Part shown: positions 17,353 to 64,000 of the stretch, piece after piece | Numbering within the stretch: position 1 is the first letter of the stretch | How the letters are laid out: each line of letters begins with the position of its first letter | Origin: Pyrinomonadaceae bacterium | GTDB taxonomy: Bacteria; Acidobacteriota; Blastocatellia; Pyrinomonadales; Pyrinomonadaceae | Direction: 5' to 3' | NCBI GenBank assembly: GCA_035635855.1 | Contig: DASQAF010000040.1 | Coordinates: forward strand, 153,312-217,311 | Length of the DNA: 64,000 nucleotides | Program-made: the position numbers and the translations under genes | Notes under the pieces: model-generated | The model's input: the letters and a program-made list of their open reading frames with translations, nothing else | Told to the model about the DNA's origin: nothing | Database searches by the model: none

Positions 17353-17440
17353 TTCCGTATTAACCTTTCAAGTGATACGCTTTAACTACTTGAGTACCCT
17401 TTGAGATCAGGTGGGCTGGCAACGATAATGTAGCGCGAAG

Positions 17441-18877: not shown

Positions 18878-18899
18878 GCTGAATAAGACGAATTTCAAG

Positions 18900-21035: not shown

Positions 21036-21527
21036 GCATCCACGAATGGGGCAGTCGCCCGACTGCTAAGGAGGGCTTTGCTTTCCTAACGATCAATCCG
21101 CCGATCGCAGAGCTTCCCTAATGGGCGGGCTACAACCTTCCGACGAAATAATTCCGAGTGACGTATTGCCACCTTCGCCACGTCCCGGGGGCGTCACTAT
21201 GTCCCCACCTCTCTGCCAGCGAGCTTGATCGTCAACCTTTGAGGCAGGAATGGTTATTGCACCAGTTAGCCGGTGTTTCCCGTTTGGACATTCAGACAAT
21301 CACACTGAAAGGGTATCCATGCTTACTACAAAGCGGTTTCTTCTGCCTTGCGGATTACTCGGCTTGACGGCGCCTTCAATGATGCTTCGCGCACAACAGC
21401 CACTTTTTCACCTTCGGAGTAAGCTATGACAACAATCATGCGGTCTTGCTCAGGCCAGGCCTGACGTTCTATCTTAATCGTCCCGGACGAACACATACGC
21501 AGTAGGTTTCTGACTTGGGATTAGATT

Positions 21528-24101: not shown

Positions 24102-24149
24102 GAGGATGCTGAAAAAAGCAAATTCGCCACTCTCTTTGTTCTCATCTTT

Positions 24150-24182
24150 CTCCGTGCCTTTGTGCCTCTGGGTCTTTGTGGC
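24150..24182. repeat. GT-rich motif ctccgtgcctttgtgcctctgggtctttgtggc, related to the repeat at 58629-58648
   Basis: It shares the gtctttgtgg core (24172-24181 versus 58639-58648). Located between the twin OMP genes. Confidence 0.4.
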
Positions 24183-24240
24183 TAAGCTTAGTTTGCATTT
24201 TCGAAAACCCGGTCTTCCGAGCGGTTGATGGTGCTGTACG

Positions 24241-46171: not shown

Positions 46172-46476
46172 GTCTAGAGTCGAGACGGAAATTCGGGTAA
46201 AACTCTCGCTGCTTTGATTTCGCGCCGAGGGGCGACGCGCGTGCTCGTCCTTGTAAGCTGTAGAAACCGTTAAGGCAGCCTAATTTCCTGCGATCAAAAC
46301 TTCCAAAGTTCTCTTCCGCCGTTTAGCCTAAAAAGTGAGGCGGGATCGACTCCCGCGGGCAGCCTCTGGGGGGAGTTGCTTTGAGGCCGGGCCAACTATA
46401 ACATCGGCACAACGAAACGGCAATACCAAATCGAGCTACTTTGGGGCCGGCCCTGGCTCGGGTCTTGCTGCATCCA

Positions 46477-48000
46477 ATGGCCTTGTCGAGATTGCTAAAC
46501 AGCTTTCGCGTTCGTCTGCTGCTGCTGCTGGCGGCCCTGCTGGTGCTGACCGTCAGTGTCCAGTACTACGTCAATCTGCAATCAGTTCGCACCAACACGC
46601 AATTTATCGTCGAGCAGCAGCGGGCCATCATGGCCGGGGTAGCGCTGGGTGTAAACAGCCTGTCGAGCGGGCTGTATCTCGATCAAATGCGCGAGCAGGC
46701 TAAGCAGCCCTTGCTAGGCGAACAAGCCGAGCGAGTTAAGAACGTGCTGATCGTCGACGATCAGGGAAACATTAAGGATAGTCTGGACAAGAATCAGATC
46801 CCTCAGATGAACCCGGACAAGTCGATCACTTATGTAAAGGTGAAAGACGTCGCGCTGCCGCCACTGCGAAGCGCAGTAGAGCTTCCGGCTGAGAACGTGG
46901 CACTGCCGGAAGGCATGACGGTCGTACGTCAGGGGACCGCAGGCGAGTCGAGCGCGTTCTATTTTCCGGTAGAAACCACGAACGGGCGGCGCTATGTAAT
47001 CGTCGTCCTGGGTTCCGACAACAGCCTGGCAACAATTTTCAGACGCCAGGCGCGCCAGTCACTTCTGTATACATTGGCTGTGTTGCTGGTCACCACCTGT
47101 TTGACCGCGATCGTGGTCTGGCGATTCACTCGTCCGATCAAGTCGCTGTCGATCGGCGCGCGTCGGATCGCGACCGGAGACTTTTCCTTTCGTGTTCAGA
47201 CCAGCGGACGACGAGACGAAATGGGGGAACTCACCGAACTTTTCAATGACATGATCGTCAAGCTCGACCGTACGCGCGAACTCGAGACTCAGCTCTATAA
47301 CGCCGAAAAGGCAGTGGTGGTCAGCCGGCTGGCATCGGCTATCGCTCACGAGATTCGAAACCCGCTCAATTACATCAACCTGACGCTCGATCACTTGCGC
47401 GCCACCTTTGCTCCTGACGACCCGAAAAAACAGGAGAAGTTCAGTAGCCTGACCACCCAACTAAAATCTGAGGTCGCACGCATCAACACCCGAATCACGG
47501 AGTTTCTGAACTATTCGCGGCCGGCGGCCCTCGAGCCTAAGTCACTCGATCTCGTGGCGACCGCGCGTGATGCAATGCGTATCTTTGAACCGCAGGCTTC
47601 CGAATGTAACGTTAAAACGCGGATCGACGAACACGGCCCTGTTCCCCGGGTTACGGCCGACTCTGAGTCTTTGCGCTCAGCGCTGACCAACCTCATTATC
47701 AATGGCTTGCAGGCAATGGACGGCAGTGGGGGCAGTTTGTCGATAGTTTTGGCGAGCGAAGACGAGGGCCGCCGCGCCCGCATCGAGGTTACGGACACCG
47801 GTCGTGGTATTGCGCCGGAAGACATTTCGAAAGTATTCGAGCCATACTATTCAACGAAAGAGACGGGAACGGGATTGGGTCTGGCCATTGTCCGAAAAGC
47901 CGTGGACGATCATCACGGCTCGATATCGGTAAAATCGAAAGTGGGCGCGGGCACTACATTCACGATCACTCTGCCGGCGGAACAGCCGCCGCGAGCTTAG
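46477..48000 (+). CDS. HAMP-type sensor histidine kinase (NtrB/AtoS-like)
   Basis: The track ORF starts at TTG 46441; ATG 46477 gives MALSRLLNSF + TM. Second TM + HAMP (RPIKSLSIGARRIATGDFS), H-box IAHEIRNPLNYI, NLIINGLQAM, GTGLGLAIVRKAVDDHHG. Confidence 0.9.
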   Translation: MALSRLLNSFRVRLLLLLAALLVLTVSVQYYVNLQSVRTNTQFIVEQQRAIMAGVALGVNSLSSGLYLDQMREQAKQPLLGEQAERVKNVLIVDDQGNIKDSLDKNQIPQMNPDKSITYVKVKDVALPPLRSAVELPAENVALPEGMTVVRQGTAGESSAFYFPVETTNGRRYVIVVLGSDNSLATIFRRQARQSLLYTLAVLLVTTCLTAIVVWRFTRPIKSLSIGARRIATGDFSFRVQTSGRRDEMGELTELFNDMIVKLDRTRELETQLYNAEKAVVVSRLASAIAHEIRNPLNYINLTLDHLRATFAPDDPKKQEKFSSLTTQLKSEVARINTRITEFLNYSRPAALEPKSLDLVATARDAMRIFEPQASECNVKTRIDEHGPVPRVTADSESLRSALTNLIINGLQAMDGSGGSLSIVLASEDEGRRARIEVTDTGRGIAPEDISKVFEPYYSTKETGTGLGLAIVRKAVDDHHGSISVKSKVGAGTTFTITLPAEQPPRA

Positions 48001-48038
48001 CGGCGGGCCACCACCCGCCATAGCAATTCGAAAAAACG

Positions 48039-49391
48039 ATGCCAAGAAAAAGCATACTCGTAGTTGACGACGAAAAACCGCAACGAGACATTCTGCAGGA
48101 AATATTGACAAGCGCCGGATACGATGTCACCTCTGCGGCTTCGGGCGAGGCCGCACTGAAATTTGCCAAAGACCGCAGCTTCGATCTCGCGCTGACTGAT
48201 TTGAAGATGACCGGCATGGACGGCATCGAGCTGCTCCAGCAACTACTGGCCCTCGATTCTTCGATCATTGTCATCCTGCTGACGGCGCATGGCACGATCG
48301 ATTCGGCCAAGGACGCATTGCGGCGCGGCGCCTTCGATTACCTGCAGAAGCCATTCGACCGCGACCGTCTGCTGGACACAATCAAGCGCGCGCTGGGCAA
48401 CCTCGATCAAATTGATGTCGAGATCATTTCCGCCTCTCCGAAAATGGAAGCCGTCAAGAAGATGATCCTGAAGGTTGCCCGATCGAATTCGACGGTGCTG
48501 ATTCGGGGAGAATCGGGCACCGGCAAGGAACTGATCGCCCGGGCAGTGCACAATCAATCGCCGCGTTCGTCAGAGATGTTTCAGGCGGTCAACTGCGCCG
48601 CGATCAATGAAAACCTGCTCGAATCTGAATTGTTCGGCCACGAGAAGGGCTCGTTTACCGGCGCGCATGCGGAAAAGAAGGGACTATTCGAAGTCGCCGA
48701 TTCCGGCACGCTCTTCCTGGACGAAATCGCCGAACTGGACGTCGGCATGCAAGCTAAACTGCTGCGAGCTTTGCAGGAGCGCAAGATTCGCCGTGTGGGC
48801 GGCACGCATGAAATTCCGATCGACGTCCGCGTCATCGCCGCCACGAATCGGGATCTGCGCGCGATGGTTGCCGATGGACGTTTTCGCGACGATCTTTACT
48901 ATCGCATCAATGTGTTATCGGTTGACGTGCCGCCGCTGCGCGAACGCCGCGAAGATATTCCGGTGCTGATTGATTACTTTCTGAAGAAGCACACGCGCAA
49001 CACCTCGCGCCTCGTCAAAGGGCTGACCACCGAAACAAGGCGCATGCTGAACGACTATGGGTGGCCGGGCAATGTGCGCCAGCTCGAGTCGGCAATTGAG
49101 CGCGCGATCCTTTTGTGCGAAGGCGACCTGATTACTCCGGATGATCTGCCTTCCGAAGTCCGGCAGGAATCGCGAACGGCAGCGACCGGTGGATTCAAGC
49201 TGCCGCCCGAAGGAATATCGTTCGAAGACGTCGAGAAGAATCTGATCCTGCAGGCAATGGATCAGACCGACTACAACATAACCAAAGCAGCGAAACTCCT
49301 CGGTCTCACCTTTCGCACGTTGCAATATCGCCTGGAAAAGTTTGGCATCCGCAAACCTGACGATAAAGAAAAGGAACCAGCCGAAGGATAG
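48039..49391 (+). CDS. NtrC-family sigma54-dependent response regulator
   Basis: ILVVDDEKPQRD, DLKMTGMDG, Walker A GESGTGKE, GSFTGA loop variant, and [25 protein letters not shown]. Confidence 0.93.
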   Translation: MPRKSILVVDDEKPQRDILQEILTSAGYDVTSAASGEAALKFAKDRSFDLALTDLKMTGMDGIELLQQLLALDSSIIVILLTAHGTIDSAKDALRRGAFDYLQKPFDRDRLLDTIKRALGNLDQIDVEIISASPKMEAVKKMILKVARSNSTVLIRGESGTGKELIARAVHNQSPRSSEMFQAVNCAAINENLLESELFGHEKGSFTGAHAEKKGLFEVADSGTLFLDEIAELDVGMQAKLLRALQERKIRRVGGTHEIPIDVRVIAATNRDLRAMVADGRFRDDLYYRINVLSVDVPPLRERREDIPVLIDYFLKKHTRNTSRLVKGLTTETRRMLNDYGWPGNVRQLESAIERAILLCEGDLITPDDLPSEVRQESRTAATGGFKLPPEGISFEDVEKNLILQAMDQTDYNITKAAKLLGLTFRTLQYRLEKFGIRKPDDKEKEPAEG

Positions 49392-53078: not shown

Positions 53079-54149
53079 ATGTCATTTTGGTCAAGCTCAC
53101 AACCCCGTGGCTCAGAAGTCCACTTGTCTACCTTTTTGAGAAGTATCCTGCTCATGCTTCTGGTGATGAGCACAATCGTCTTGTCTCTAACTCAAGCTTT
53201 CGCTCAGGATCCTGCCAACAAGGAGCGGCCGCGCAGGGTCTTACCGGCCGAAGCCGAGCCACAGGATGTGATCAAAATCGATACCGATCTTGTTCCCATC
53301 GATGTCACGGTAACGGATGCCCGGGGCCGGCTGGTTCGCAATCTGAAGAAGGAAGACTTCAAACTCTTCGACGATGGGATTGAGCGCGAGATTGCTTCCT
53401 TCAGTGTTGAGAAGATCGAAGGCGCACCGCGTCCGGTGGCCATTGTCTTCGCGTTGGATCTATCGGGCAGCATGACCCCCGAAGAGATTAGTCGCGTAAG
53501 CGACGCCATGCGCGAGTTTTCACGACGCCTGGCAGAGCATCCGGCAGTTTTCGCGGTCATGACTTTCGGCATGCGCGTAAAGACCTTGCAAGGCTTCACC
53601 AACGATCGCGAGAAACTTGATCGAGCATTCGACCGGTTAGAGCACGAGCCGAACGGAATGTCCACACACACCTACGACGCAGTGGACGACGCAGTGCGCA
53701 TGCTGGTCCGACATGCGCCGCTAACCCGCCAGCATCAATTGGTCAAGCGCGCCGTCGTGGTAATCACTGACGGCTTTCCGGTCGGCGACACGGTTTCGCC
53801 TGACACCGTGATCGAACGCGCCAACGCTGCCGACACCAGCGTCTATGTAGTAACCATGCCGTCCTACACGCGCATGCTGGCGTCGGCGCAGGTGACGCCG
53901 CTGCCGACACCGCTGGACGTTAGCGGATTGGTCGAGAAGACCGGCGGACGAAGCATCTATGCCAATGAAAAGGATCTGGGTCCGCTGTTTCGGGCTATCG
54001 CCGAAGAAGTTGCGGCGGCTTATGTGCTCGCGTTCTATCCGCCAAAAGAAAAGCGCCACGATGGCGCGTTTCACACAATTCGAATCGAAGGTCCGCGGGA
54101 AATGACGCTGCGGCAAAGCCGGCCGGGATATAAGGCCAGTAGGCAGTAG
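53079..54149 (+). CDS. VWA-domain protein with VWFA-related acidobacterial-type N-terminal domain
   Basis: Signal peptide; IKIDTDLVPIDVTVTDARGRLVRNLKKEDFKLFDDGIEREIASF (pattern of TIGR03436 as I recall it); MIDAS-like ALDLSGSM. Confidence 0.8.
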   Translation: MSFWSSSQPRGSEVHLSTFLRSILLMLLVMSTIVLSLTQAFAQDPANKERPRRVLPAEAEPQDVIKIDTDLVPIDVTVTDARGRLVRNLKKEDFKLFDDGIEREIASFSVEKIEGAPRPVAIVFALDLSGSMTPEEISRVSDAMREFSRRLAEHPAVFAVMTFGMRVKTLQGFTNDREKLDRAFDRLEHEPNGMSTHTYDAVDDAVRMLVRHAPLTRQHQLVKRAVVVITDGFPVGDTVSPDTVIERANAADTSVYVVTMPSYTRMLASAQVTPLPTPLDVSGLVEKTGGRSIYANEKDLGPLFRAIAEEVAAAYVLAFYPPKEKRHDGAFHTIRIEGPREMTLRQSRPGYKASRQ

Positions 54150-54158
54150 GCAGAAGGC

Positions 54159-54217
54159 AGAAGGCAGCGAACAGTAGCCGTGGATCGTTCCGGGTTTTCT
54201 GCTCACTGCCTTCTTTT
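54159..54217 (+). terminator. Hairpin built from (aggcagWa)n repeats; likely terminator of the VWA gene
   Basis: agaaggcagcgaacag (54159-54174) pairs with ctgctcactgccttct (54198-54213), 14/16, followed by ttttct. The repeat run agtaggcagtaggcagaaggcagaaggcag (54139-54167) straddles the stop codon. Confidence 0.55.
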
Positions 54218-54218
54218 C

Positions 54219-54404
54219 TCAGAACTCATCTTCATCATCGTCATCGTCGAGTGAATCTTCCTCGACAAGGTCCAGCTCGACAGGATCCAGGCCAACAACT
54301 TCCAGTTGGACTCCACACTCTTCGCAATCAACTACTTCGCCCTTATCCACGTCGGTATCCACGTGAACGTCGGCATCACATTCTGGGCACGTTCCGGTCG
54401 GCAC
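54219..54404 (-). CDS. LysW-like zinc-ribbon amino-group-carrier homologue with non-canonical acidic tail
   Basis: MPTGTCPECDADVHVDTDVDKGEVVDCEECGVQLEVVGLDPVELDLVEEDSLDDDDDEDEF. It has CPxC...CxxCG...LEVVGLDP as in LysW/ArgW, but ends in ...DEDEF rather than ...EDWGE. Confidence 0.65.
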   Translation of the reverse strand: MPTGTCPECDADVHVDTDVDKGEVVDCEECGVQLEVVGLDPVELDLVEEDSLDDDDDEDEF

Positions 54405-54643
54405 TTCTGCTACCTCCAGGGAAGATTTCTATTTGTCTGCCTTAATGCTTTGATTATGAAGCAATCAATCTAACCGCAGGGCGACAGATTTTGCAATACT
54501 ATTTGTAAGGCCAAATCAAAACACGCAATCTTTCAATCGAAAAGAGAGAGGTTTCGCGAATAATGCGCCGGTGGCGCGATTTTTAGGCCACCGTCAATGT
54601 CATTGTATTAGTCGTTCTTGAGAACGTCGACTCGCGTGGCCAC

Positions 54644-57600
54644 TCATCTTCGCCGTAAACGACTGTAACCTACGATCCCAACGAGAATTCCCAGAAGCAA
54701 ACTCACCAACGCCTGTGCGGAGGATACCCTCCCGCCAATGAAGTTGTGCGGCTCGGTCGCCGGCTCATCCGTCACTCTAAAAAACTCTCCTTGTCCTGAG
54801 CCGGTCCGCAACATGCGCTGCATTTCCTCAAACGTGAAGGTCCGCGCGCCGCGTCGCCCAAACACAGCAATCTGATTTCCACTTTCATCGACTGCACGAT
54901 CGCGATCGAGCGCCTTGGAAACAGCGAGCGCCTCGCCTTTCGTTTTGAAGGTAGCGATTAGTTGCGGCTCCGGCCTGGGACTAAACCCTGCATAAGTCGG
55001 CATCGTCTCAGGTGAAGTCAGTTGCAGAATCCGCAAACCGTTTCGGCCATCTGCGACATAGCCAAACAGACTAGCGTTCGTCATCGCAATCTTAACTTGT
55101 CGTGTGTCGTTCAATTTTCCTTCCGCATTGTAAATCTGATCGAGCCGGGGTGTTTCCGGTTGCTTCACATCGATAATCGCCACGCCTTCCCTGCCGTCGG
55201 CAACATAGGCATAAGTGCGAGCGACGTACACATCGCGCGCATCGGTTAGCCGCACAAACGCCCCTTCCATTAAGCGCGCCCGTCCGGGTTCCGTCAGATC
55301 AATCACCTTCAAGCCGTCATCGTCAACCACAAAGCCGTAACGAAACTGAATGGCGATTGCCCGTGGATGTTTTAGCGCCGGCGCGCCGATGCGACTGACT
55401 ATTTTCGGGTCCAGCGGATTATCTATACTCACGATCACAAGTTCGCTATCGGTCGTGATACAAGCCTGTGTTCCCGCAATGGCGATATTGTTCGCGCCAG
55501 TCAGCGCACCGTCAGGATTGAACGCACCGTTCGCATACTTCGTCCTGTCGAGTTGGCGTTTGAGATAGTTATTCAGGGGATCTCCATCCAGAAGAGTTGC
55601 CGCGTTGACAACGATCAAGCCTTCGAACTTATCAACCACATATAGGTAGGCATAGAGCGGATGAATCGCCTGCTCTTCATTGACCAGCTTTTCCGGGGGC
55701 AATTGCCGCGCGCGATCCGGATCGATCATCTGGCCATCTGTGGTCATGCGCCAGCGCGCCGGATCAACTGCCAACGTCGAGGGCGCGGCCACGGCGGTTG
55801 CATACTTTGTCTTTAAGTAAAACTTTTGACCGAAGGGCGAGACTGGCGCGGTAGTGATACGTTCTGAGAATCCTTTCTGATCGATTTGCGCGACATCGTA
55901 AACTCGCAAGCCACCTTCGCCGGCGGCGACATACGCGTATTCGCCCCGCAGTTGCACCTGCAGGACACGCGGGTTGCCGGTGTGTTCATAAGCTGTCCGC
56001 AGTTCGCGCCCGGCCTTCACAAACTTCTGATAATCATCGGGGTACGCAACCTTCTGCAGCGTGCTGCCAAAGACCGCCTGCGGTTCGGTGTGCTCGGTGA
56101 CCACCACCGCTTCCAACGCCTCATCGGATGCGACGTAAACATAGCGGCCCATGAAATTCACAAAGTTCGTTCCTTGCAAAAGCAGTTGCGCCATCCAGGC
56201 GTTGTTATCGTTGTTCCTGGAGACGTGACAGTCGCTGCATGTTTTTGTTTCGGTGGCGCGTACCGTGTGCGGCACGTGCGTATTGAAAGTTTGTCCGGAA
56301 AAACCTTCGGCGGAGACGGTCTGCTGCTGCGAGTAGATCCATTCCCGATTTTGAGTCTGCGAACTCACCAGCACCGCGCTCGAAGAGCGCACGGGCGCGA
56401 TCCGATTCCCCGTCACGGTGCCGTCACGCCCGAGCATAAACACGTCGTCGCGCAGGACTTGATAGTTATAGGTGGTGAAGTTGCGGGTGTCGCCGCCTTC
56501 GTTGTGACGGTTGGGCATTTTCCGATTCGCCTGCATCGAAAGATGACAACCAAAGCAGCTCGTCATCCACGACGAGTGGCAGGCAAAGCAGGTCATGTTC
56601 GCATCGCGATGAGCAAGTTGTTTGTCGTCAGCCGGCACGTCGCCCCAGGTCGCGTTGTCGGTTCGCATCGTCTTCGCATAGCGCGACTTCAAACTGTAGT
56701 CTTCCGGATGCGAAGCGCCTGGATTGATCGTATCGATAGTCTGCTTGACTCGCCACCACCGCCCGGGCACCACCATTGAATTTTGGATTATGTCGCCGGC
56801 CTTGAGTGCGATTTCATTCCCGTACTCATCCTTTCGCTTTGTATCGCTTCTGATCCGCTGGAACAGAAACACTCGACCGCCGTCGGGATCGCGGAATCGT
56901 GTAGTGGCAAGATTGCGGCCTTTGCCCTGCTCAAACTTGGCGTCTTTTATGCCGAACCCCGCCGCGAATCCTGACGTCACCAGCGTCGCTCGCTCGCGAA
57001 TCGTGCCATGACAATCGATGCAACCAATCTCAATCGCGGCGCGTGGTTCGTTGTAGAGGATTCCGTTGCCGTGCGCGTCCTGCCGGAAATGACAATCGAC
57101 GCAATGCATCCCCTTCTCGAGATGGATGTCGTTAAGGTGAACCGCTTTCTTGAATCGATCCGGATCTTCAGGCGAGACAATCGCGTTCTTTGCATCAAGC
57201 AAGTTCCCTTCCCGATCGCGTTTGAAGACCTGCCGAAAGATCCAGCCATGCCCGTGAGAGTCCGCAAACTGCGTGCGCTTGAGCCGGCTGTTGAATTCAG
57301 CCGTGCCGGTTTGATCGAGGAACTCCGGTTCAGACCAGAGTCCGCGCAGGCTCGCCGCTTCTGGATTACGGTTGAGCTTTCGCTGTTCTTCTTCTTGCGA
57401 GGGACTGTGCTGCGTGGCCGGATACATCTTGTCGCCGTCGGTTTCGTTGTCCCACCAGATCAGACCCTGGTAAGACGCCACCATGTTTTCACCCGGATGC
57501 ATGTGACAAATCATGCACTGCGAAGTGGGAATGCGACTGGTCAACTGATGCTTGATCGGATGGCCCGATTCGTTTTTCGGAACGCTGGTATCGCCCGATT

Positions 57601-58663
57601 GCGACATCCCGCGGTTTCCGGCCGCGCTGTAAAAGGCCGAATGCCGCGGATCGCGATCGTTAGCATAGATGACATGACATGCCGTGCATCCCGACGAACG
57701 ATAGTCGCCAGGGTGATCGTTGGTGCCGAGAAAGTTCAACGTGGGATCGAGTAGCCGCGTCTTCTGCAAACCGAGGTAAACCGGATCGGTGCGCTGTGCG
57801 GTGCCAAAGCCGCGCGCGCTTAGTCCCTTGTCAGGTTTGCCCGGATCTTCATCTCTGTCCGGCAGACCTGTTTCCAAACGTCGCTTGCCTCCGCGTTCGA
57901 ACACACGCAGAATATTTCCTGGCTGTGATATTTCCCAACGCGGAATTGGATCGAGGAACGGGAGGATTCCCTTTAGACGTTTTTGCTCGGCGGTAGGCTG
58001 CGGAACTTGAATCAGACGTTGCGGCGCACCCGTTTCACGGTAACTCTCGCCAAAGTTTGCGTCCTTGATCGGAAAGCCTCCGTTGTTATAAAGCGCCGCG
58101 CCCCAAAGCATCGCGCCGTGCGTCATCATGCTCTTACCCACGGCATTAGTCTGCGTGTTGTGACAATCCGAACTGCCGCACGTTTTGGCCGCCACGCGCA
58201 AATCGCCCGGATTGAGAAAGCGCACGAAGTCCAGACTCTCTTTCTCGAGTAGTGGACCTGACCGTTCAGGAATTCGGAATTTCCCGTCACGATTCCATTC
58301 GCGCGGAAAACGCGGCCGCACGTGTGCCATTTCTTTTTCGGTCGCGACCGGATTGCCGCCGTGACAGGCAGTGCAGGTCAAGCCCAAAGCGTCCTTGCCA
58401 TTGTCGAGCCTATCCAATGTGGCTGTCGGCCCGAACTTGTGCATGGGCTCGATCTGGTTATGACAGTTGAGACAGCCTTCGAGAGTTTCAGCGGGCGGAA
58501 CGCGCGGAGGGATGTCTGAGTTCGGAACATTCTCAGCACGAGCGCGAATAATAATTCCGACCACCAAGACACAAAGACACAAACAGAAAGCCGGCAGACA
58601 ATTACGCGCTCCCGTTTTTTCGATCTTCGTGTCTTTGTGTCTTTGTGGTTTCACTCTTCTCAA
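54644..58663 (-). CDS. Multihaem c-type cytochrome (9 CXXCH + 1 CX4CH) fused to an LVIVD-repeat beta-propeller, with C-terminal sorting-signal-like TM tail
   Basis: CLNCH, CTACH, CGSSDCH, CTACH, CMICH, CVDCH, CIDCH, CFACH, CFGCH, CSDCH. LVIVD-like repeats include [62 protein letters not shown] and [15 protein letters not shown]. The tail is [30 protein letters not shown]. The TTG start overlaps the upstream stop. Confidence 0.85.
58566..58643. repeat. 15-bp perfect inverted repeat inside the 5' end of the cytochrome gene
   Basis: aagacacaaagacac (58566-58580) and gtgtctttgtgtctt (58629-58643) are separated by 48 nt. They encode ...QRHKDTK... and ...CLCLCVLV... of the signal sequence. Confidence 0.8.
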
Positions 58664-60837
58664 AAAACAAACTTCACCTGCGCGAACAATGAAAACAGCG
58701 GCTTGCTGGGATTGATGACTGTATTGTCAGCCGTGCAAAAGTCACTCAGATTCGGAGGACAATTACTGGCAGCGTTCGTAAAAATGTCGCGAAAGCCGCG
58801 CCCCGGCTTCAACGTCGCAGCTCCGAAGGTCATCGTCACATTGTTGATGAGAAACGGCCGGTACGCTACGCCCAGGCTGTAGTCCCAACCGATTTCATGC
58901 CGAATGTGCGGCTGAAACAAAATGTATTCCAATGACTCGGTCCGGTGAAAGCGGAGATAGTTCGCGTTGAAGATGGCTTTCAACCTCTGCGTGACTTCCA
59001 CATCGACGCCGGCGTTGTAAATAAGGATACCGGGATTTACAAAATTGGCCTGGCCTTCGATCTTACTACTGCGCAGTGAAGGTAGAATGCTGTTCGGTTG
59101 CACCAGGCCGACGCCGGTTTGCGTCAGGCGTATGCCGTTACGATTCCAAAACGAGAACTGACCGCCCACGAAATTCGGATCGTCAAAGATCGCATCAAAG
59201 CCGCTCGCCTTTCCATCGGTCGGATTCTTATCGCCCTGGGCCCAGAAGAACGAGCCGCGGAATCGAAAATAATCCTTATCAATCGAGCCCTCAACTGCGG
59301 CCATGTGCGAGCTGACGTGCACCGGCCGGCCGGCAATCGGATTATGGTCGTCGCGTCCGAACACGTAGTAGTACGAGTTCGTCAGGTTCAGACGGCCAAT
59401 GTGCCCGTCACCGTTGACGCCGACGTAGCCAACCTTGATTGCGTGTGGCCGAACGTCGCCAATCAAAGCCGGCCGCACCAGAAAACCATTGCGATCAAAC
59501 TTACGACTGCGCCGATCGTCGTTGTAGAGCGCAGTGGCCTGGATTGTATAACCCTTGCGGATAAAATCCTGCCGAAAGACATTCGCGATGTACACATTCT
59601 GATGACGGAGATCGAAACGATTCAGACCGCTGTTGGTGTCTTTCTCAAGCTGAGCAAAGTAAACGAAGTTGTACTGGTAACGATTATTATCAAAACTCCC
59701 GAAAACCCGCGCGCCCAAATTGTTATCCGAGTAAATGAAGCCCCGAAAATCCGAGACGAACGGCTGAATGCCGATGCGCGCCGAAATGAAATCAAAGTTT
59801 TGGTTAACGTCTTCGAACTTTACTTCCGCAAAAGCTTCTTCCAGCGAAAACTGCGTGTCAGTCCGGTTTGTGCCCCGCCGCACGTCGATATTCACCACGC
59901 CGTTTTCGCGCGCGTTCAGATAGTTCGGCAGACTGAACGTCGGCGAAATTTTGATCGCCCAGTCACGTGGCTTGTACGTCGAATCTCCATGAAACATCTC
60001 GAAGGTGAATTGGAAAATCTGATTCAGGGAGAGCGCTTCCGGCTTACCAAAAAATTCGGCGCTGCCAGGTCGAGCGCTGCTGACACCCGATGGCTTCGGT
60101 GTGCGGCTCAAGTCAACTGAGGTGGAACTCACCGCCGAAAGAATCATAAACACTTTGTTGCCGATGATTGGATAGTCGCCTTTCAGCCAGTTCTGATGGT
60201 AAGGGTCGTACCAACGGCCTTTCTTAAAGGGAATGTCGCGACCGCGCGCGCCTTTGTCGCCATAACGATCGTATTCAGGGAAACCGATCCGCCAGCGATC
60301 GCGCACGGCCCGTCGATCAGTTTGAGTCTGCGGTTCTGAGTCGACGCTTGTCTGCCCGGCAGCACCGGGCGGTTTGCGTTCGGGGACTGTGACGATTTGC
60401 TGTTCTGTTCGCTTCTCGACCGTGAAGTCGACTTTGGTCTGCTTATCTGCACTGACGATCACGTTCTCGAGCGTATCGCCACGGACCAGCGCATGCTCGC
60501 CATAAGTTTTCTCGGCGGCAAACTTTGCCGTGAAGGGAGGTTCGACAGTTATGCGGTACGCACCGACGGGGAGTTTTAGCTCATAGTGTCCGGCGGCATC
60601 CATGCGGGCCCTGGTAATCCTGCTGGTCACTTGATTCGTCGCCACCACAATGACGTCCGTTGAGGCAGGTTCGATGGTGCCGGTAATGGTTCCGCGTTTT
60701 TCTCCGAGGGCAGATTCCGCTGAGGCCAGAATCAAAGCGGCTGAAACCAAGGCCAGCACACAGGGTCTACGTAATTTAACTTGTGACGGAAACAAGGTGA
60801 GCGACTTGTAGCACACGCAGCGTCGACCATCAATCAA
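58660..60837 (-). CDS. Outer-membrane beta-barrel protein with N-terminal carboxypeptidase-regulatory-like domain
   Basis: The maximal ORF runs to 61047. A plausible start is TTG 60837 (SD AGGA 8 nt upstream) or TTG 60795, either giving the signal peptide ...[29 protein letters not shown]...[18 protein letters not shown], about 550 aa of barrel-like sequence, ending in FAQVKFVF. Confidence 0.7.
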
Positions 60838-60954
60838 AATCTCGTTCCTTAGATCAACTTGAGAAAAACGTTTTCGCCTGCCAGCGATTAGTGATAGATT
60901 GCCAAATACTCCCGAAAGATTTCGGCACGCAACTTCGCGGTATTGGCACGCTCG

Positions 60955-63117
60955 ATGACAGCCAGCTTCTCTGACCAACGCGCACGCTTTCTGCTGCTGA
61001 TGTCTGTCTGCGTACTCTTGCTCCTGGGAACCCCGCTCTCTTTTCAAAACTCGCGCGCGCAGACCACCAAACTCACCCTGGTCAGCGAGGAAACCTCGAC
61101 TCGCGGGATCGTGGTTGAATCAATTACTCAAAAACATGAACCGTTCGCCCTGACTTCGCCGATCACTTGGGGTTCGGACAATCGCACTCGGATCATGCTG
61201 TTTGCGATGGGCCTGAGTCTGGAATCGAATGAAACGCCGGCGGCGGTCACGGCGAGCGCGGAGGACGGCGCGCATCGGACTTATTCGCTGACCGTAGAAT
61301 GCGTGGCACCGGTGCCCAACCAGGAGTGGATGACTTCGATCGTCGTCCGATTGAATGAGGAGATGGCCGATGTCGGCGACGTGCTGGTGCAAATCACATA
61401 TCACGGCACCGGGAGTAATCGCGTGCGCGTCGGAGTCGGTCACGTTGGAGATGGACCGCCAGACGACAATGGCGCAGTTCCGACGCCGGGAACAATTGCT
61501 CCGCCGGTGCAGCTTTCAGCGACCGCGGGCACATTAACAACGTCGGAGGTCCAAACGATCATCGCCCAGGCCGTCTCCGTAGCGGCGCAGTTGGGCCGTC
61601 CGGTCACCGTAGCGGTAACTGATCGCGAGGGAAACGTCCTCGGCGTCTTCACGATGACCGGCGCGCCGGCCACAACCCAACTTCGCGGCGGCGGCCCGGG
61701 TCCAGGGCAGACTCCGGACCCGCTCAGCGGTTTTGTTCCCGTCGGTCTGGACGGGACGCGTGTGCCGGCAAAGCTGGCGGCGATCTCAAAGGCGGGCACG
61801 GCGTCTTTGTTCAGCACGCGCGGGAACGCGTTCACCAGCCGGACCGCCGGGTTCATTATTCAGGAACATTTTCCGCCCAACGTGGATTTCAAACCTGGCG
61901 GCCCACTCTATGGCGTGCAGTTTTCTTCTTTGCCATGTTCGGACATCAAGATTCCGGGCTTGCCGCTGGGCTTGAGCGGCGATCCCGGGAGTGTGCCGAT
62001 TTACAAAAACGGCGAAGCAGTCGGTGGCGTCGGCATCGAAGGAGACGGCGTCTACACGGTCGATCGCGATCCGGCGGATTTCGATCAGCCGTTCGAAGAG
62101 GTGATCGCAGTTTCAGCCGCCCGCGGGTTCGAAGCGCCTTCTGTAATCCGCGGCGACAACATTTTGGTTGATGGAATCCGGCTCGCCTATCTCAACGTCG
62201 CGAACGCGCCCGCTCCGACCACGACTCCTTTTGGCAGTTTGCCCGGTGCGGTCGATCCCATGTTTCCAATCCGTGGCGCGCAATCCTCCCAATTCACGCC
62301 AACGGTCGTGGGCGGCATAGCCGGCGAAGTCGACACACGTTTCTTTCCCTTCATTGCCAGCCCGACGGTCACGGCAAATTCACTGACAGCTTCCGATGTC
62401 GGCACGATCATCGCGCACGGAGCGCAACAAGCGAACATTACACGGGCGGCGATTCGGCAACCACTGGGCAGCAACGCGCGCGTGACGATCGCCGTAGTGG
62501 ATACGAACGGTGTCGTGCTCGGTGTGTTTCGTCAAACCGATGCGCCAGTGTTCGGATTTGACGTGGCTGTGCAGAAGGCGCGGACGGTGGCTTTCTATTC
62601 AGCAACCGGTGCGGCGGCCTCGCTGCGGACTGTGGGTTTCGGCTCTTACGTCGATCGCGCTGCGGCTGATGGTTTGAAGTTGGATGGGTCCGTGGCTTTC
62701 ACGGATCGTGCGGTTGGTTTTCTGCATCGCCCGTTCTTCCCCGACGGCATCAATAACGCCGCGGCCGGCCCGTTCAGCCGTCAACCAGGCGAATGGAGTG
62801 TCTTCAACGTCGGCCTGCAACTTGATCTAATCAAGACGAACCTGCAAACGATACTGAGCGGCGGCGCGGCGCCATGTACTTCGATTCCCAGCTTGCCAAA
62901 CGGTATTCAGATATTTCCCGGCAGCGCGCCTTTGTATAAAAACGGCGTGCTGGTCGGCGCGATTGGCATCAGCGGCGACGGCGTGGATCAGGATGATCTC
63001 ATCGCCGGCGCGGGCAGCAACGGATACGCTCCGCCAGTCGCTATTCGTTCGGATCAGGTTTTTGTGCGCGGGGTGCGCCTGCCTTACCTGAAGTTTCCGC
63101 GCAGCCCGAATCTTTGA
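60955..63117 (+). CDS. Secreted protein with an N-terminal Ig-like module and two GlcG/HbpS-like (DUF336) domains
   Basis: Signal peptide FLLLMSVCVLLLLGTPLSF. Repeats: LTTSEVQTIIAQAVSVAAQLGRPVTVAVTDREGNVLGVF...PIYKNGEAVGGVGIEGDG and LTASDVGTIIAHGAQQA...VTIAVVDTNGVVLGVF...PLYKNGVLVGAIGISGDGVDQDD. The start is ATG 60955 or TTG 60943. Confidence 0.7.
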   Translation: MTASFSDQRARFLLLMSVCVLLLLGTPLSFQNSRAQTTKLTLVSEETSTRGIVVESITQKHEPFALTSPITWGSDNRTRIMLFAMGLSLESNETPAAVTASAEDGAHRTYSLTVECVAPVPNQEWMTSIVVRLNEEMADVGDVLVQITYHGTGSNRVRVGVGHVGDGPPDDNGAVPTPGTIAPPVQLSATAGTLTTSEVQTIIAQAVSVAAQLGRPVTVAVTDREGNVLGVFTMTGAPATTQLRGGGPGPGQTPDPLSGFVPVGLDGTRVPAKLAAISKAGTASLFSTRGNAFTSRTAGFIIQEHFPPNVDFKPGGPLYGVQFSSLPCSDIKIPGLPLGLSGDPGSVPIYKNGEAVGGVGIEGDGVYTVDRDPADFDQPFEEVIAVSAARGFEAPSVIRGDNILVDGIRLAYLNVANAPAPTTTPFGSLPGAVDPMFPIRGAQSSQFTPTVVGGIAGEVDTRFFPFIASPTVTANSLTASDVGTIIAHGAQQANITRAAIRQPLGSNARVTIAVVDTNGVVLGVFRQTDAPVFGFDVAVQKARTVAFYSATGAAASLRTVGFGSYVDRAAADGLKLDGSVAFTDRAVGFLHRPFFPDGINNAAAGPFSRQPGEWSVFNVGLQLDLIKTNLQTILSGGAAPCTSIPSLPNGIQIFPGSAPLYKNGVLVGAIGISGDGVDQDDLIAGAGSNGYAPPVAIRSDQVFVRGVRLPYLKFPRSPNL

Positions 63118-63272
63118 TCAAGGAAAAAGTAAAAAGGCAAAAGGCAAAAAATGAAGAAGGATCTCTTCAGTTCAAGTGTTGTCCCTCCTCACAAAGCCAG
63201 CCTCAAACCCATGCTCGCGGGCGCGATCGTTCTTTTTTCCTTTTTACCTTTTACTTTTACCTTTTTCCTTGA
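63118..63272. repeat. A/T-rich palindromic element spanning the intergenic spacer, RBS, start codon and first ~40 codons of the next gene
   Basis: 12-bp perfect termini tcaaggaaaaag (63118-63129) / ctttttccttga (63261-63272). The arms extend imperfectly: (aaaaggc/aaaaggt)n versus (accttt/tacttt)n. Confidence 0.65.
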
Positions 63273-64000
63273 GACCGCTCACACCCAGACCCCACAGGCA
63301 ACCCGCGGTGTCATTCGTCTAAAAGTAAAATACAAATCGGGTGAGGCCACGAAAGAGCTGCCGCGCAAACGCTTCTTTCTGATTAAGGGCAGTCTGGAAG
63401 AAAATAAAGGCCTGATTGAAAAGATCAAACAGCCCGCGACGCTATCGCGCGAGTGTTATTACCGTAACAAGAGAGCGAGCGCGGCTTTGATCAAATGGCT
63501 GAATGAAAATGATTGCGAGTCCGTCTATTGCCGCGAGATAGAAGAGAAATATCTGGGTGGTAATGAAGCAGTGCCGGAGTTTAAGGCGGCCTACGACGTA
63601 GCGTTGCGAGAGTTCAAGAACCCGGAGCTGGCCCGACGCTGGCTGACGGTAAACTTACCGGCTGAGTTTCGTGACGGCTTTTACAAACAGAAGCAGGAAC
63701 TCATTAACGCCCTGCTGAAGCAGGCGGAAGAAACCACCAGGACAAAGGTGATGTCGGTAATGACCGATCGGAAAGGCACTGCATACCTTACCGAAATCGA
63801 GCCCGGTCTCTATACAATCTCGAATCTGGTCGCCAGCGAAACCGAAAAGACGAGTATTCTATGGGCGTGTGAGAAAGAAGTGAAGGCGGTTGATCTGGCG
63901 ATTGCGATGCGCCGACCTTTCACTCTGTCGAACGAAAAGGATCCAAAGGTCAAATGCGAGATTGTTGAGCGGCCTCTGCCGGTTTGTGAGCAGACTGCGA
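63151..64000 (+). CDS. Secreted/membrane-anchored protein of unknown function (5' part; continues past the window end)
   Basis: Absent from the ORF track (no stop). My own translation: MKKDLFSSSVVPPHKASLKPMLAGAIVLFSFLPFTFTFFLETAHTQTPQATRGVIRLKVKYKSGEATKELPRKRFFLIKG... is open to position 64000. Alternative start ATG 63211. Confidence 0.6.
   Translation, partial: MKKDLFSSSVVPPHKASLKPMLAGAIVLFSFLPFTFTFFLETAHTQTPQATRGVIRLKVKYKSGEATKELPRKRFFLIKGSLEENKGLIEKIKQPATLSRECYYRNKRASAALIKWLNENDCESVYCREIEEKYLGGNEAVPEFKAAYDVALREFKNPELARRWLTVNLPAEFRDGFYKQKQELINALLKQAEETTRTKVMSVMTDRKGTAYLTEIEPGLYTISNLVASETEKTSILWACEKEVKAVDLAIAMRRPFTLSNEKDPKVKCEIVERPLPVCEQTA

What the first reader, a model, noticed from the sequence alone, without database searches (positions are those of the whole stretch)
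54644..60837. Translationally coupled outer-membrane barrel and ten-haem cytochrome / LVIVD beta-propeller fusion with a sorting-signal-like C-terminus: candidate porin-cytochrome type surface redox module
Seen: a 1339-aa ORF carries 9 CXXCH motifs and one CX4CH (CGSSDCH) in its first ~850 aa. These are followed by at least five LVIVD-type repeats. The tail is Gly-Gly, a 16-residue hydrophobic helix, then SRLRRR, which is the tripartite layout of exosortase/rhombosortase-type sorting signals (no clear PEP motif). Its TTG start overlaps the TGA of the upstream ~710-aa barrel-type OMP (TTGA at 58660-58663). That OMP has a carboxypeptidase-regulatory-like N-domain and an aromatic C-terminus (FVF). 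Established: porin-cytochrome pairs (MtrAB, Geobacter Pcc, Cyc2) carry electrons across the outer membrane, and LVIVD repeats form beta-propellers. Inference: this is an OMP-assisted, surface-sorted multihaem/propeller protein that could act in extracellular electron transfer or as an extracytoplasmic redox enzyme. I do not recognise a characterised cytochrome + LVIVD fusion.
Basis: partly seen in the sequence, partly recalled or inferred. Interest (0 to 1): 0.75.

Follow-up and report, generated by a model that had tools for sequence, protein, structure and literature searches.

The report
Outer-membrane barrel plus decahaem–propeller cytochrome module
A soil acidobacterium (Pyrinomonadaceae) has a two-gene unit, an 18-strand outer-membrane barrel and a ten-haem cytochrome fused to a beta-propeller. 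The pair is conserved in hundreds of species, sits inside a 39-haem gene cluster, and is most likely the outer end of an uncharacterised envelope electron-transfer chain. It is not a Shewanella-type porin sheath, and nothing supports sorting to the cell surface.

Summary
ORF 54644-58663(-) has 9 CXXCH motifs plus CGSSDCH, LVIVD repeats and a C-terminal helix followed by SRLRRR. Its TTG start overlaps the TGA of a 725-aa outer-membrane protein (OMP) gene, 58660-60837(-).

- **Pairing:** the OMP lies directly upstream, on the same strand, in 69 of 69 informative loci. These span Acidobacteriota and a few Planctomycetota and Methylomirabilota bins.
- **Wider cluster:** the pair is one arm of a multihaem cluster. 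In this genome two nonahaem, one tetrahaem and one FHA-heptahaem cytochrome lie just beyond the window end.
- **Fusion evidence:** four lineages fuse a tetrahaem c3 domain to the barrel.
- **Barrel size:** the modelled barrel has about 18 strands. Its best structural matches are AlgE, OprD and LamB, not MtrB, so it is too small to sheathe a decahaem.
- **C-terminus:** the helix occurs in only 15 of 76 loci, has no conserved signature and matches no sorting-signal model. It looks like a plain inner-membrane anchor.
- **Haem domain:** it has no convincing relative in Pfam, NCBIfam or PDB. All homologues are annotated "hypothetical".

Best reading: a periplasmic decahaem wire with a propeller docking module, working with a dedicated outer-membrane barrel. 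It is a new variant of the porin-cytochrome theme. The redox partner and direction of electron flow are unknown.

The parts
54644..58663 (-). Gene for the 1339-aa decahaem c-type cytochrome / LVIVD beta-propeller fusion. It may instead start at the GTG at 58654, giving 1336 aa.
   Evidence: ORF; translation; 100% identical NCBI protein of 1336 aa, 'hypothetical protein [Pyrinomonadaceae bacterium]'
58532..58663 (-). N-terminal Sec-type signal peptide (aa 1-44: basic n-region, hydrophobic core [17 protein letters not shown], then RARA/EN)
   Evidence: Hydropathy. Homologues have variable N-termini with the same layout. The cleavage site is inferred.
56174..58531 (-). Haem domain (aa 45-830) with ten haem-binding motifs and about 13 conserved non-motif His residues. 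It contains a small beta-rich insert at about aa 570-640.
   Evidence: The only family hits are weak (Cytochrome_C7; NCBIfam ExtM at 70 bits against a cut-off of 800).
58160..58180 (-). CX4CH haem motif CGSSDCH (haem 3, aa 162-168)
   Evidence: The position is invariant; the motif is CX4CH or CXXCH depending on lineage.
54809..56161 (-). LVIVD-repeat beta-propeller domain (aa ~835-1285, an estimated 7-8 blades). It ends in the invariant [12 protein letters not shown]...FGRRG motif. It has no invariant His or Cys but many invariant Asp/Asn/Glu.
   Evidence: Pfam PF08309; own repeat HMM; conservation. No structure was predicted for this part.
54647..54730 (-). C-terminal hydrophobic helix (aa 1312-1333) and basic tail SRLRRR (aa 1334-1339): a lineage-specific membrane anchor
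   Evidence: Not conserved in sequence. Present in 15 of 76 loci. No sorting-signal family hit.
58660..60837 (-). Gene for the 725-aa outer-membrane protein: signal peptide, N-terminal beta-sandwich, conserved linker, about 18-strand beta-barrel, C-terminal ...VKFVF
   Evidence: The public gene call is also 725 aa.
60412..60696 (-). OMP N-terminal carboxypeptidase-regulatory-like beta-sandwich (aa 48-142). In other lineages it is missing or replaced by a tetrahaem c3-type domain.
   Evidence: Pfam PF13620 E 2.4e-5; AF2 pLDDT 85-90; variants
60193..60312 (-). Strongly conserved linker motif [34 protein letters not shown] (aa 176-215), which AF2 does not model
   Evidence: Invariant columns; pLDDT < 50
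58663..60171 (-). Beta-barrel (aa 223-725), 18 long strands in the model. It includes a very conserved, poorly modelled loop at aa 538-602 (59032-59226).
   Evidence: AF2 DSSP. Foldseek best hits are AlgE 3rbh (E 7e-11, TM 0.49) and other 18-strand porins.
60838..60963 (.). 126-bp divergent intergenic region between the OMP gene and the HbpS-like gene. A shared control region is presumed.
   Evidence: The consensus scan found no convincing sigma-70 site.
60964..63117 (+). Divergent gene for a 717-aa secreted protein with three matched HbpS-like/DUF336 stretches. It is a conserved partner of the pair.
   Evidence: Pfam PF03928 E 3.6e-21. Closest solved proteins are EfgA and the PduO C-domain. 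Found in 54 loci, 46 of them upstream on the opposite strand.
63151..64000 (+). Gene for a secreted ~284-aa Cys-containing protein of unknown family. It runs off the window end.
   Evidence: L082 shows it is followed by genes for 9-, 9- and 4-haem cytochromes and a divergent FHA-heptahaem cytochrome.

Best explanation
The two genes encode the conserved core of an extracytoplasmic electron-transfer module of Acidobacteriota.

**The cytochrome.** It is exported by Sec and receives ten c-type haems. Enough conserved His residues exist for all ten to be bis-His, which would make the domain a wire rather than a catalytic site. It stays on the periplasmic side. In this lineage a C-terminal stop-transfer helix tethers it to the inner membrane. 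Some other lineages use an N-terminal lipid anchor, and most have no anchor.

**The propeller.** The fused LVIVD propeller has no redox-metal ligands but many invariant acidic and Asn residues. It probably serves as a docking or binding module.

**The barrel.** The co-translated 18-strand barrel is the dedicated outer-membrane partner. It gives the haem chain access to an outside redox partner. The likeliest route is passage of a small or soluble donor, acceptor or shuttle. A less likely route is a short haem-bearing segment or loop seated in the barrel.

**Electron supply.** Electrons would reach or leave the module through the neighbouring c3/c7-type nonahaem, tetrahaem and membrane-anchored heptahaem cytochromes.

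**Shown:** the sequence anatomy, the conservation of the gene pair, the cluster context and the barrel size class.
**Inferred:** cellular location, physical docking, direction of electron flow and the substrate.
For: - Ten invariant haem motifs and about 13 conserved extra His residues.
- LVIVD propeller.
- The OMP is directly upstream on the same strand in 69 of 69 loci with enough DNA. Identities co-vary with r = 0.94. The loci span Blastocatellia, Terriglobia, Bryobacterales, Vicinamibacterales, Planctomycetia, Phycisphaerales and Methylomirabilia bins.
- Start/stop overlap with a Shine-Dalgarno sequence.
- In the same genome the divergent arm carries 9-, 9-, 4- and 7-haem cytochromes. Related loci show the same, plus in Terriglobia a membrane-anchored decahaem, a polytopic His-rich membrane protein and an FeS protein.
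- Four OMP homologues carry an N-terminal tetrahaem class III cytochrome domain.
- The barrel has 18 strands and is AlgE/OprD-like.
- The C-terminal helix is variable, optional and followed by a basic tail. Some homologues have lipoboxes instead.
Against: - There is no experimental datum for any homologue.
- Both AF2 models are mediocre (pLDDT 62 and 58). The haem-domain model matched nothing in PDB, so the fold and haem geometry are unknown.
- The propeller was not modelled.
- Nothing shows that the cytochrome and the barrel touch.
- An 18-strand barrel with AlgE-like top hits could serve a non-redox transport role.
- The organism's family is known as aerobic heterotrophs (own knowledge), so a respiratory role for 39 haems is not obvious.
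- One locus (L038) lacks the OMP upstream.
Confidence: 0.55

Rival explanations
1. It is a true trans-outer-membrane conduit. Part of the cytochrome (for example the compact N-terminal dihaem unit, aa 60-115), or in some lineages the fused tetrahaem domain, sits inside the barrel in the manner of Cyc2. Electrons pass directly to or from insoluble Fe/Mn minerals or humic particles.
For: - The gene pair is strictly conserved.
- Cytochrome-barrel fusions exist in four lineages.
- The most conserved barrel segments are unmodelled loops that could hold a partner.
- Analogous porin + propeller + cytochrome clusters in Terriglobia are proposed to mediate extracellular electron transfer (10.64898/2026.05.27.727921).
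Against: - The barrel is of the 18-strand class, far smaller than the MtrB-type sheath (MtrB strand number from own knowledge).
- The window's barrel has no haem motif.
- The haem domain has about 80 residues per haem, so it is bulky.
- No outer-surface cytochrome is evident in the cluster.
Confidence: 0.2
2. One reading: an MtrAB/Pcc-like porin sheathes or assists a multihaem/propeller protein, which an exosortase- or rhombosortase-type C-terminal signal sorts to the cell surface.
For: The tripartite tail is present in this protein. The genes are adjacent and overlapping.
Against: - The GG is not conserved. The tail is absent from 61 of 76 loci and varies in length and sequence.
- No PEP-CTERM, GlyGly-CTERM or other sorting model matches.
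- No MtrB_PioB or DmsE/MtrA family hit for either protein.
- 18 strands, and MtrB is not among the listed structural hits.
Confidence: 0.06
3. It is a periplasmic terminal oxidoreductase for a specific soluble compound, such as a metal(loid) oxyanion or an N or S species. One haem or the propeller would form the active site, and the barrel would be the substrate-specific uptake channel, in the way the porin-like ExtI is linked to selenite/tellurite reduction in Geobacter.
For: - Low haem density, like enzyme-type multihaem proteins.
- Weak profile hits to octahaem nitrite reductase (E 7e-5) and NrfA, and to ExtM/N/O of the Geobacter ext cluster (PMC5877670).
- The barrel falls in the substrate-specific channel size class.
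Against: - Every hit is far below family cut-offs and is confined to haem-motif segments.
- Enough conserved His residues exist for all haems to be bis-His.
- The propeller has no invariant His or Cys.
- No accessory catalytic subunit lies in the cluster.
Confidence: 0.14
4. It has a non-respiratory role: redox-stress sensing or detoxification, or reductive iron/haem acquisition. The HbpS-like protein would act as haem binder or sensor, and the barrel as a haem or iron channel.
For: The HbpS-like/DUF336 protein is a conserved divergent neighbour. Relatives of that domain bind haem or small molecules (and own knowledge). An FHA-domain cytochrome lies in the cluster.
Against: Thirty-nine haem motifs and c3/c7-type carriers are typical of bulk electron transfer. 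No TonB box or plug is present. No transporter or regulator is consistently linked.
Confidence: 0.05

Closest known systems
MtrCAB / PioAB / MtoAB porin-cytochrome complexes (Shewanella, Rhodopseudomonas, Sideroxydans)
   Same: An adjacent, co-directional gene pair for an outer-membrane barrel and a decahaem cytochrome, set within a larger cytochrome cluster. The proposed task is electron exchange across the envelope.
   Different: No sequence membership: no MtrB_PioB or DmsE/MtrA hit for either protein. The barrel has about 18 strands, against 26 in MtrB (own knowledge). The cytochrome is 1339 aa with a fused propeller, against about 330 aa. No MtrC-type surface cytochrome is present.
Geobacter Pcc (OmbB-OmaB-OmcB) and Ext clusters, including the porin-like ExtI (PMC5877670, PMC6148476)
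   Same: A porin-like protein without a Pfam family, encoded beside multihaem cytochromes. The best curated hits of the haem domain are ExtM, ExtN and ExtO.
   Different: The hits are far below cut-offs (70 bits against 800; 24 against 200). There is no octahaem OmaB-type partner, no lipoprotein surface cytochrome and no rhodanese-like ExtH.
Porin + NHL beta-propeller 'scaffold' + cytochrome clusters (Acidobacteriota EET1 of Fiorito et al. 2026, bioRxiv 10.64898/2026.05.27.727921; Tenderiales uet cluster, bioRxiv 10.1101/2022.05.06.490989)
   Same: The same three ingredients: an outer-membrane barrel, a beta-propeller and a multihaem cytochrome, in a conserved syntenic cluster. EET1 is in the same phylum.
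   Different: Here the propeller is LVIVD-type and covalently fused to the cytochrome, rather than a separate six-bladed NHL protein. The barrel is AlgE/OprD-like rather than MtrB-like. The protein families differ.
Cyc2 fused cytochrome-porin (Fe(II) oxidisers)
   Same: A small-to-medium barrel. In four homologous loci a cytochrome domain is fused to the barrel N-terminus.
   Different: Cyc2 has one haem and a 16-strand barrel (own knowledge). The window's barrel has no haem motif and carries a beta-sandwich instead. There is no sequence relation.
AlgE and OprD/Occ, LamB/ScrY 18-strand channels
   Same: Best structural matches of the barrel model (Foldseek E 7e-11 to 1e-5, TM about 0.45-0.5).
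   Different: About 10% identity, no Pfam Alginate_exp or OprD hit, no polysaccharide or sugar genes nearby, an extra N-terminal domain and unusually conserved loops.

Membership tests
LVIVD-repeat beta-propeller (Pfam PF08309) | Repeated LVIVD-type units scoring above the Pfam gathering threshold | tested here: met
   E 1.7e-16, 59.7 bits against a cut-off of 20.2. The own repeat HMM finds five repeats.
Multihaem c-type cytochrome | Several CXXCH (or CXnCH) motifs in a Sec-exported protein, conserved among homologues | tested here: met
   9 CXXCH + 1 CX4CH, all invariant down to 40% identity; signal peptide present
Multihaem c-type cytochrome | Covalent haem attachment | not testable with these tools
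   Needs haem staining or mass spectrometry
MtrB/PioB decahaem-associated porin | Sequence match to the MtrB_PioB family (PF11854 / TIGR03509) | tested here: not met
   No hit at E <= 0.1 in Pfam or NCBIfam
MtrB/PioB decahaem-associated porin | Large barrel (26-28 strands) able to sheathe a decahaem | tested here: not met
   18 long strands in the AF2 model (pLDDT 62). The top 50 Foldseek hits are porins such as AlgE, MOMP, OprD/Occ and LamB/ScrY (mostly the 18-strand class); MtrB is not listed.
MtrA/DmsE periplasmic decahaem | Compact ~300-350-aa decahaem matching TIGR03508 | tested here: not met
   1339 aa, about 80 aa per haem. No DmsE-family hit for this protein.
Geobacter Ext cytochromes (ExtM/N/O, NCBIfam NF040943/NF040967/NF040968) | Score above the curated cut-off | tested here: not met
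   69.9 bits against 800; 23.9 against 200; 23.3 against 200
Cyc2 fused cytochrome-porin | N-terminal CXXCH domain on the same polypeptide as the barrel | tested here: not met
   The window's OMP has no CXXCH. Only 4 of 73 homologues carry an N-terminal 4xCXXCH domain.
Exosortase/rhombosortase-type C-terminal sorting signals (PEP-CTERM, GlyGly-CTERM and relatives) | Conserved signature motif immediately before the helix | tested here: not met
   The GG is present only in the closest relatives. The preceding sequence varies among 73-94% identical homologues. No model hit.
Exosortase/rhombosortase-type C-terminal sorting signals (PEP-CTERM, GlyGly-CTERM and relatives) | Cognate sortase gene in the genome | not testable with these tools
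   Only 64 kb plus 4.6 kb of the genome could be read, and not every ORF in it was screened. None of the ORFs screened is a sortase.
TonB-dependent receptor with CarboxypepD_reg N-extension (common in Acidobacteriota) | Plug domain plus a 22-strand barrel family hit | tested here: not met
   No Plug or PF25183 hit for this OMP. Two genuine examples in the same window do hit both families.
AlgE-type alginate export barrel (PF13372) | Sequence family membership | tested here: not met
   Fold-level similarity only (E 7e-11, about 10% identity). No Pfam hit.

The most novel reading that the evidence does not exclude
This is a previously unrecognised class of envelope-spanning electron conduit. A decahaem-propeller protein reaches from the inner membrane (or the periplasm) to a dedicated 18-strand outer-membrane barrel. 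Together with the DUF336/HbpS-like protein, it lets the most abundant soil phylum exchange electrons with minerals, humics or metals. That would make it a major unannotated route of extracellular redox chemistry in aerobic and anoxic soils.
Probability: 0.3. Interest if true: 0.85.

Novelty: new variant of a known kind. Interest (0 to 1): 0.6.

Why it matters
Acidobacteriota dominate many soils, yet their large multihaem proteins are annotated as hypothetical. This module occurs in at least 597 species-level genomes and in thousands of metagenome proteins. It is strictly syntenic, and neither the barrel nor the haem domain belongs to a described family. If it carries electrons across the envelope, it would give a concrete genetic marker and a testable mechanism for extracellular redox activity (Fe, Mn, humics) in soil and peat. 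Existing marker sets built on Mtr, Pcc, Cyc2 and Omc would miss it. It would also show that a barrel of the ordinary substrate-channel size can partner a multihaem wire. Even if the substrate is soluble, the fused cytochrome-LVIVD architecture is a new type of extracytoplasmic redox protein.

Tried and rejected
1. **PDB sequence searches.** Searches with the single cytochrome, the OMP profile and the diverse cytochrome profile gave nothing usable. The only results were short haem-motif hits to octahaem nitrite reductase and NrfA.
2. **Haem-domain structure.** The AF2 model of aa 40-900 had pLDDT 58, and Foldseek against PDB gave a best E of 2.3. I cannot say whether the fold is new or the model is poor.
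3. **Sorting-signal search.** NCBIfam on five C-terminal tails at E <= 10 gave no sorting family.
4. **Promoter/terminator scan** of 54000-61300 showed nothing above shuffles that helps.
5. **Literature.** LVIVD + multihaem or cytochrome, Pyrinomonadaceae + multihaem, and porin-cytochrome + Acidobacteriota found no description of this family. The nearest is the analogous but different EET1 cluster.
6. **Unusual conservation, rejected as evidence.** Neighbouring genes in the syntenic relative L002 are about equally conserved (72-85%).
7. **A frame error of mine.** In one search the query for the gene after the HbpS-like gene was in the wrong frame. I corrected it.
8. **Not possible.** Model coordinates are not exposed, so pore size and domain placement could not be measured.

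Full report
**Observation**

The window carries ORF 54644-58663(-) of 1339 aa, and directly upstream ORF 58660-61047(-). The cytochrome has CXXCH starting at aa 64, 97, 326, 383, 521, 548, 692, 703 and 809, and CGSSDCH at aa 162. All but one Cys of the mature protein lie in these motifs. Shuffles of the protein give 0.0135 CXXCH on average.

Pfam finds LVIVD (E 1.7e-16). A repeat HMM I built finds five repeats, and more are visible by eye, so I estimate 7-8 blades.

The tail [32 protein letters not shown] is present. The TTG start overlaps the OMP's TGA (TTGA at 58663-58660), and an AGGTGA lies 9 nt upstream. NCBI's identical record is 1336 aa, which fits the GTG three codons later.

With a TTG start at 60837 the OMP is 725 aa, the length the public gene call also gives. 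It has a signal peptide, a weak CarboxypepD_reg hit and an invariant C-terminal Phe.

**Source and spread**

The cytochrome is 100% identical to a hypothetical protein of a Pyrinomonadaceae MAG (Acidobacteriota, Blastocatellia).
- Among 8000 candidates, 7784 proteins scored E <= 1e-5. The best 120 are 73-94% identical, about 1300-1360 aa long, and all unnamed.
- An exhaustive search of 50%-identity representatives with the haem domain found 2385 hits, 558 of them below 1e-30. These include full-length proteins at 40-59% identity that keep both the haem domain and the propeller.
The best 80 loci are MAGs of Blastocatellia, Terriglobia, Bryobacterales, Acidoferrales and Vicinamibacterales. A few bins are labelled Planctomycetia, Phycisphaerales, Methylomirabilia or Dormiibacterota.

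**The pair is a unit**

tblastn of the window's OMP against the loci shows a homologue directly upstream, on the same strand, in 69 of 69 loci with a full-length hit. OMP and cytochrome identities to the window correlate with r = 0.94. Only L038 lacks the OMP upstream.

In L001 an IS200-type transposase sits between the two genes. In four loci, including L006 and L010, a small ORF lies between them. The overlap itself is therefore not universal, but adjacency is.

**Wider cluster**

An HbpS-like/DUF336 secreted protein (Pfam E 3.6e-21) is detected in 54 loci. In 46 of them it is upstream on the opposite strand, as in the window (60964-63117). Its closest solved relatives are EfgA and the PduO C-domain.

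Locus L082 overlaps the window for 19,357 nt with one mismatch and extends 4.6 kb past its end. After the HbpS-like gene and a secreted 284-aa protein (window 63151 onward; 76% identical to the L002 copy) come a nonahaem of 398 aa, a nonahaem of 272 aa and a tetrahaem of 236 aa. A divergent FHA-heptahaem cytochrome of 487 aa follows. The cluster therefore holds 39 haem motifs.

These neighbours are c3/c7-type cytochromes. Terriglobia loci add a membrane-anchored decahaem, a polytopic His-rich membrane protein without a family and a NuoG/HoxU/HydN-like FeS protein. That set looks like a candidate inner-membrane entry point.

**The barrel**

I assembled a diverse alignment of 62 sequences at 42-88% identity. 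AF2 gave a moderate model, with mean pLDDT 61.9 and pTM 0.53.
- aa 48-142 form a confident beta-sandwich.
- aa 145-214 are unmodelled.
- aa 229-723 contain 18 long strands, with a poorly modelled loop at 538-602.

Foldseek against PDB gives AlgE as best hit (E 7e-11, TM about 0.49). Then come MOMP, OccAB/OprD-family porins, ScrY/LamB and chitoporin. MtrB is not among the 50 hits listed.

The OMP has no Pfam or NCBIfam barrel family. Two TonB-type receptors in the same window do hit PF25183 and Plug, so this is a separate family. The two most conserved stretches (aa 176-215 and 538-602) are the ones AF2 cannot place, which fits plug loops or partner-binding surfaces.

The N-terminal domain varies between lineages. 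It is a beta-sandwich in most, absent in some (L042, L046, L072, L077), and a tetrahaem class III cytochrome domain in L073, L075, L078 and L079 (Pfam PF02085 E 3e-8 for L075). That fusion is the strongest single sign that the barrel works in electron transfer.

**The cytochrome**

All ten haem positions are conserved. Haem 3 is CX4CH or CXXCH depending on lineage. Non-motif His at 372, 389, 509, 514, 531, 685, 720 and 799 are invariant. His at 75, 114, 470, 472 and 520 are nearly so. That is enough for ten bis-His haems, so no open catalytic site is needed, although one cannot be excluded.

The propeller has no invariant His or Cys but many invariant Asp, Asn and Glu. It is more likely a docking or cation-binding module than a redox centre.

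Family hits are weak. ExtM scores 70 bits against a cut-off of 800, ExtN and ExtO about 24 bits, and Cytochrome_C7 is marginal. The diverse profile hits only short segments of octahaem nitrite reductase (E 7e-5) and NrfA (E 0.2) in PDB. The AF2 model of aa 40-900 is poor (pLDDT 58) and matches nothing.

**The C-terminus**

Among 73-94% identical homologues the linker, the helix and the basic tail vary in sequence and length, and the GG is not conserved. Only 15 of 76 species loci have a C-terminal hydrophobic helix. About 9 have a lipobox-like N-terminus instead, and the rest have no anchor. No sorting-signal model matches.

A cleavable signal peptide, one C-terminal helix and a basic tail make up the textbook stop-transfer layout. 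In this organism the protein is therefore most simply a periplasm-facing, inner-membrane-tethered protein. This is an inference.

**Mechanism**

The best-supported reading is an extracytoplasmic electron-transfer module. A periplasmic decahaem wire with a propeller docking module works with a dedicated 18-strand outer-membrane barrel. Neighbouring c3/c7-type cytochromes feed or drain it.

How charge crosses the outer membrane is open. The barrel's size class argues for passage of a small donor, acceptor or shuttle. The four cytochrome-barrel fusions and the conserved unmodelled loops keep a Cyc2-like inserted-haem conduit alive. Direction of flow and substrate cannot be inferred.

**Comparison with known systems**

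The genetic logic is that of porin-cytochrome systems such as Mtr, Pcc/Ext and Cyc2, but every family-defining feature tested fails. The nearest analogy is the porin + NHL-propeller + cytochrome clusters recently proposed for Terriglobia (EET1, bioRxiv 10.64898/2026.05.27.727921) and for Tenderiales. In those clusters the propeller is a separate NHL protein, and the EET1 porin is MtrB-like.

I found no paper describing a cytochrome-LVIVD fusion.

**Verdict**

This is a real, widespread and uncharacterised module, a new variant of the porin-cytochrome theme.

Noticed in passing
L082:211-4653 (same genome, just beyond window position 64000): Two nonahaem (398 and 272 aa) cytochromes, one tetrahaem (236 aa) cytochrome and a divergent FHA-heptahaem cytochrome (487 aa) continue the cluster. 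With the decahaem this makes 39 haem motifs.
   Followed up: yes
L082:211-1674; also L002, L009, L010, L075: A cytoplasmic FHA (phosphothreonine-binding) domain appears joined through a membrane helix to a periplasmic heptahaem cytochrome. The fusion is conserved in 11 loci and hints at control of this chain by Ser/Thr kinases.
   Followed up: partly
window 63151-64000 (+): A secreted ~284-aa protein with conserved Cys pairs and no Pfam or NCBIfam family. It lies after the HbpS-like gene in the Pyrinomonadaceae-type loci examined (12 loci).
   Followed up: partly
window 60964-63117 (+): A 717-aa secreted protein with three matched HbpS-like/DUF336 stretches and an extra N-terminal domain. It is divergently paired with the OMP gene in 46 loci. 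Its role is unknown (haem or small-molecule binding?).
   Followed up: partly
L001:9321-9926: An IS200/IS605-type Y1 transposase is inserted between the OMP and cytochrome genes of a 73% identical homologue.
   Followed up: no
L061:19076-23537 and L036, L050: Terriglobia loci carry a membrane-anchored decahaem, a polytopic His-rich membrane protein without a family, and a 678-aa NuoG/HoxU-like FeS + cNMP-binding + HydN-like protein. Together they look like a candidate inner-membrane electron entry module.
   Followed up: partly
window 14368-26880 (+): A CHASE2 histidine kinase, a sigma-54 response regulator, a FecR-like 711-aa protein and two TonB-type receptors with CarboxypepD_reg N-domains. 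This looks like an unrelated uptake/regulation cluster.
   Followed up: no
window 46441-49391 (+): A HAMP histidine kinase and a second sigma-54 response regulator lie about 5 kb from the cytochrome gene and are syntenic in L002 and L082. A regulatory link was not tested.
   Followed up: no
L006:9392-9781, L010:9579-9956: A small 125-129-aa ORF lies between the OMP and cytochrome genes in four loci. It is absent from the window.
   Followed up: no
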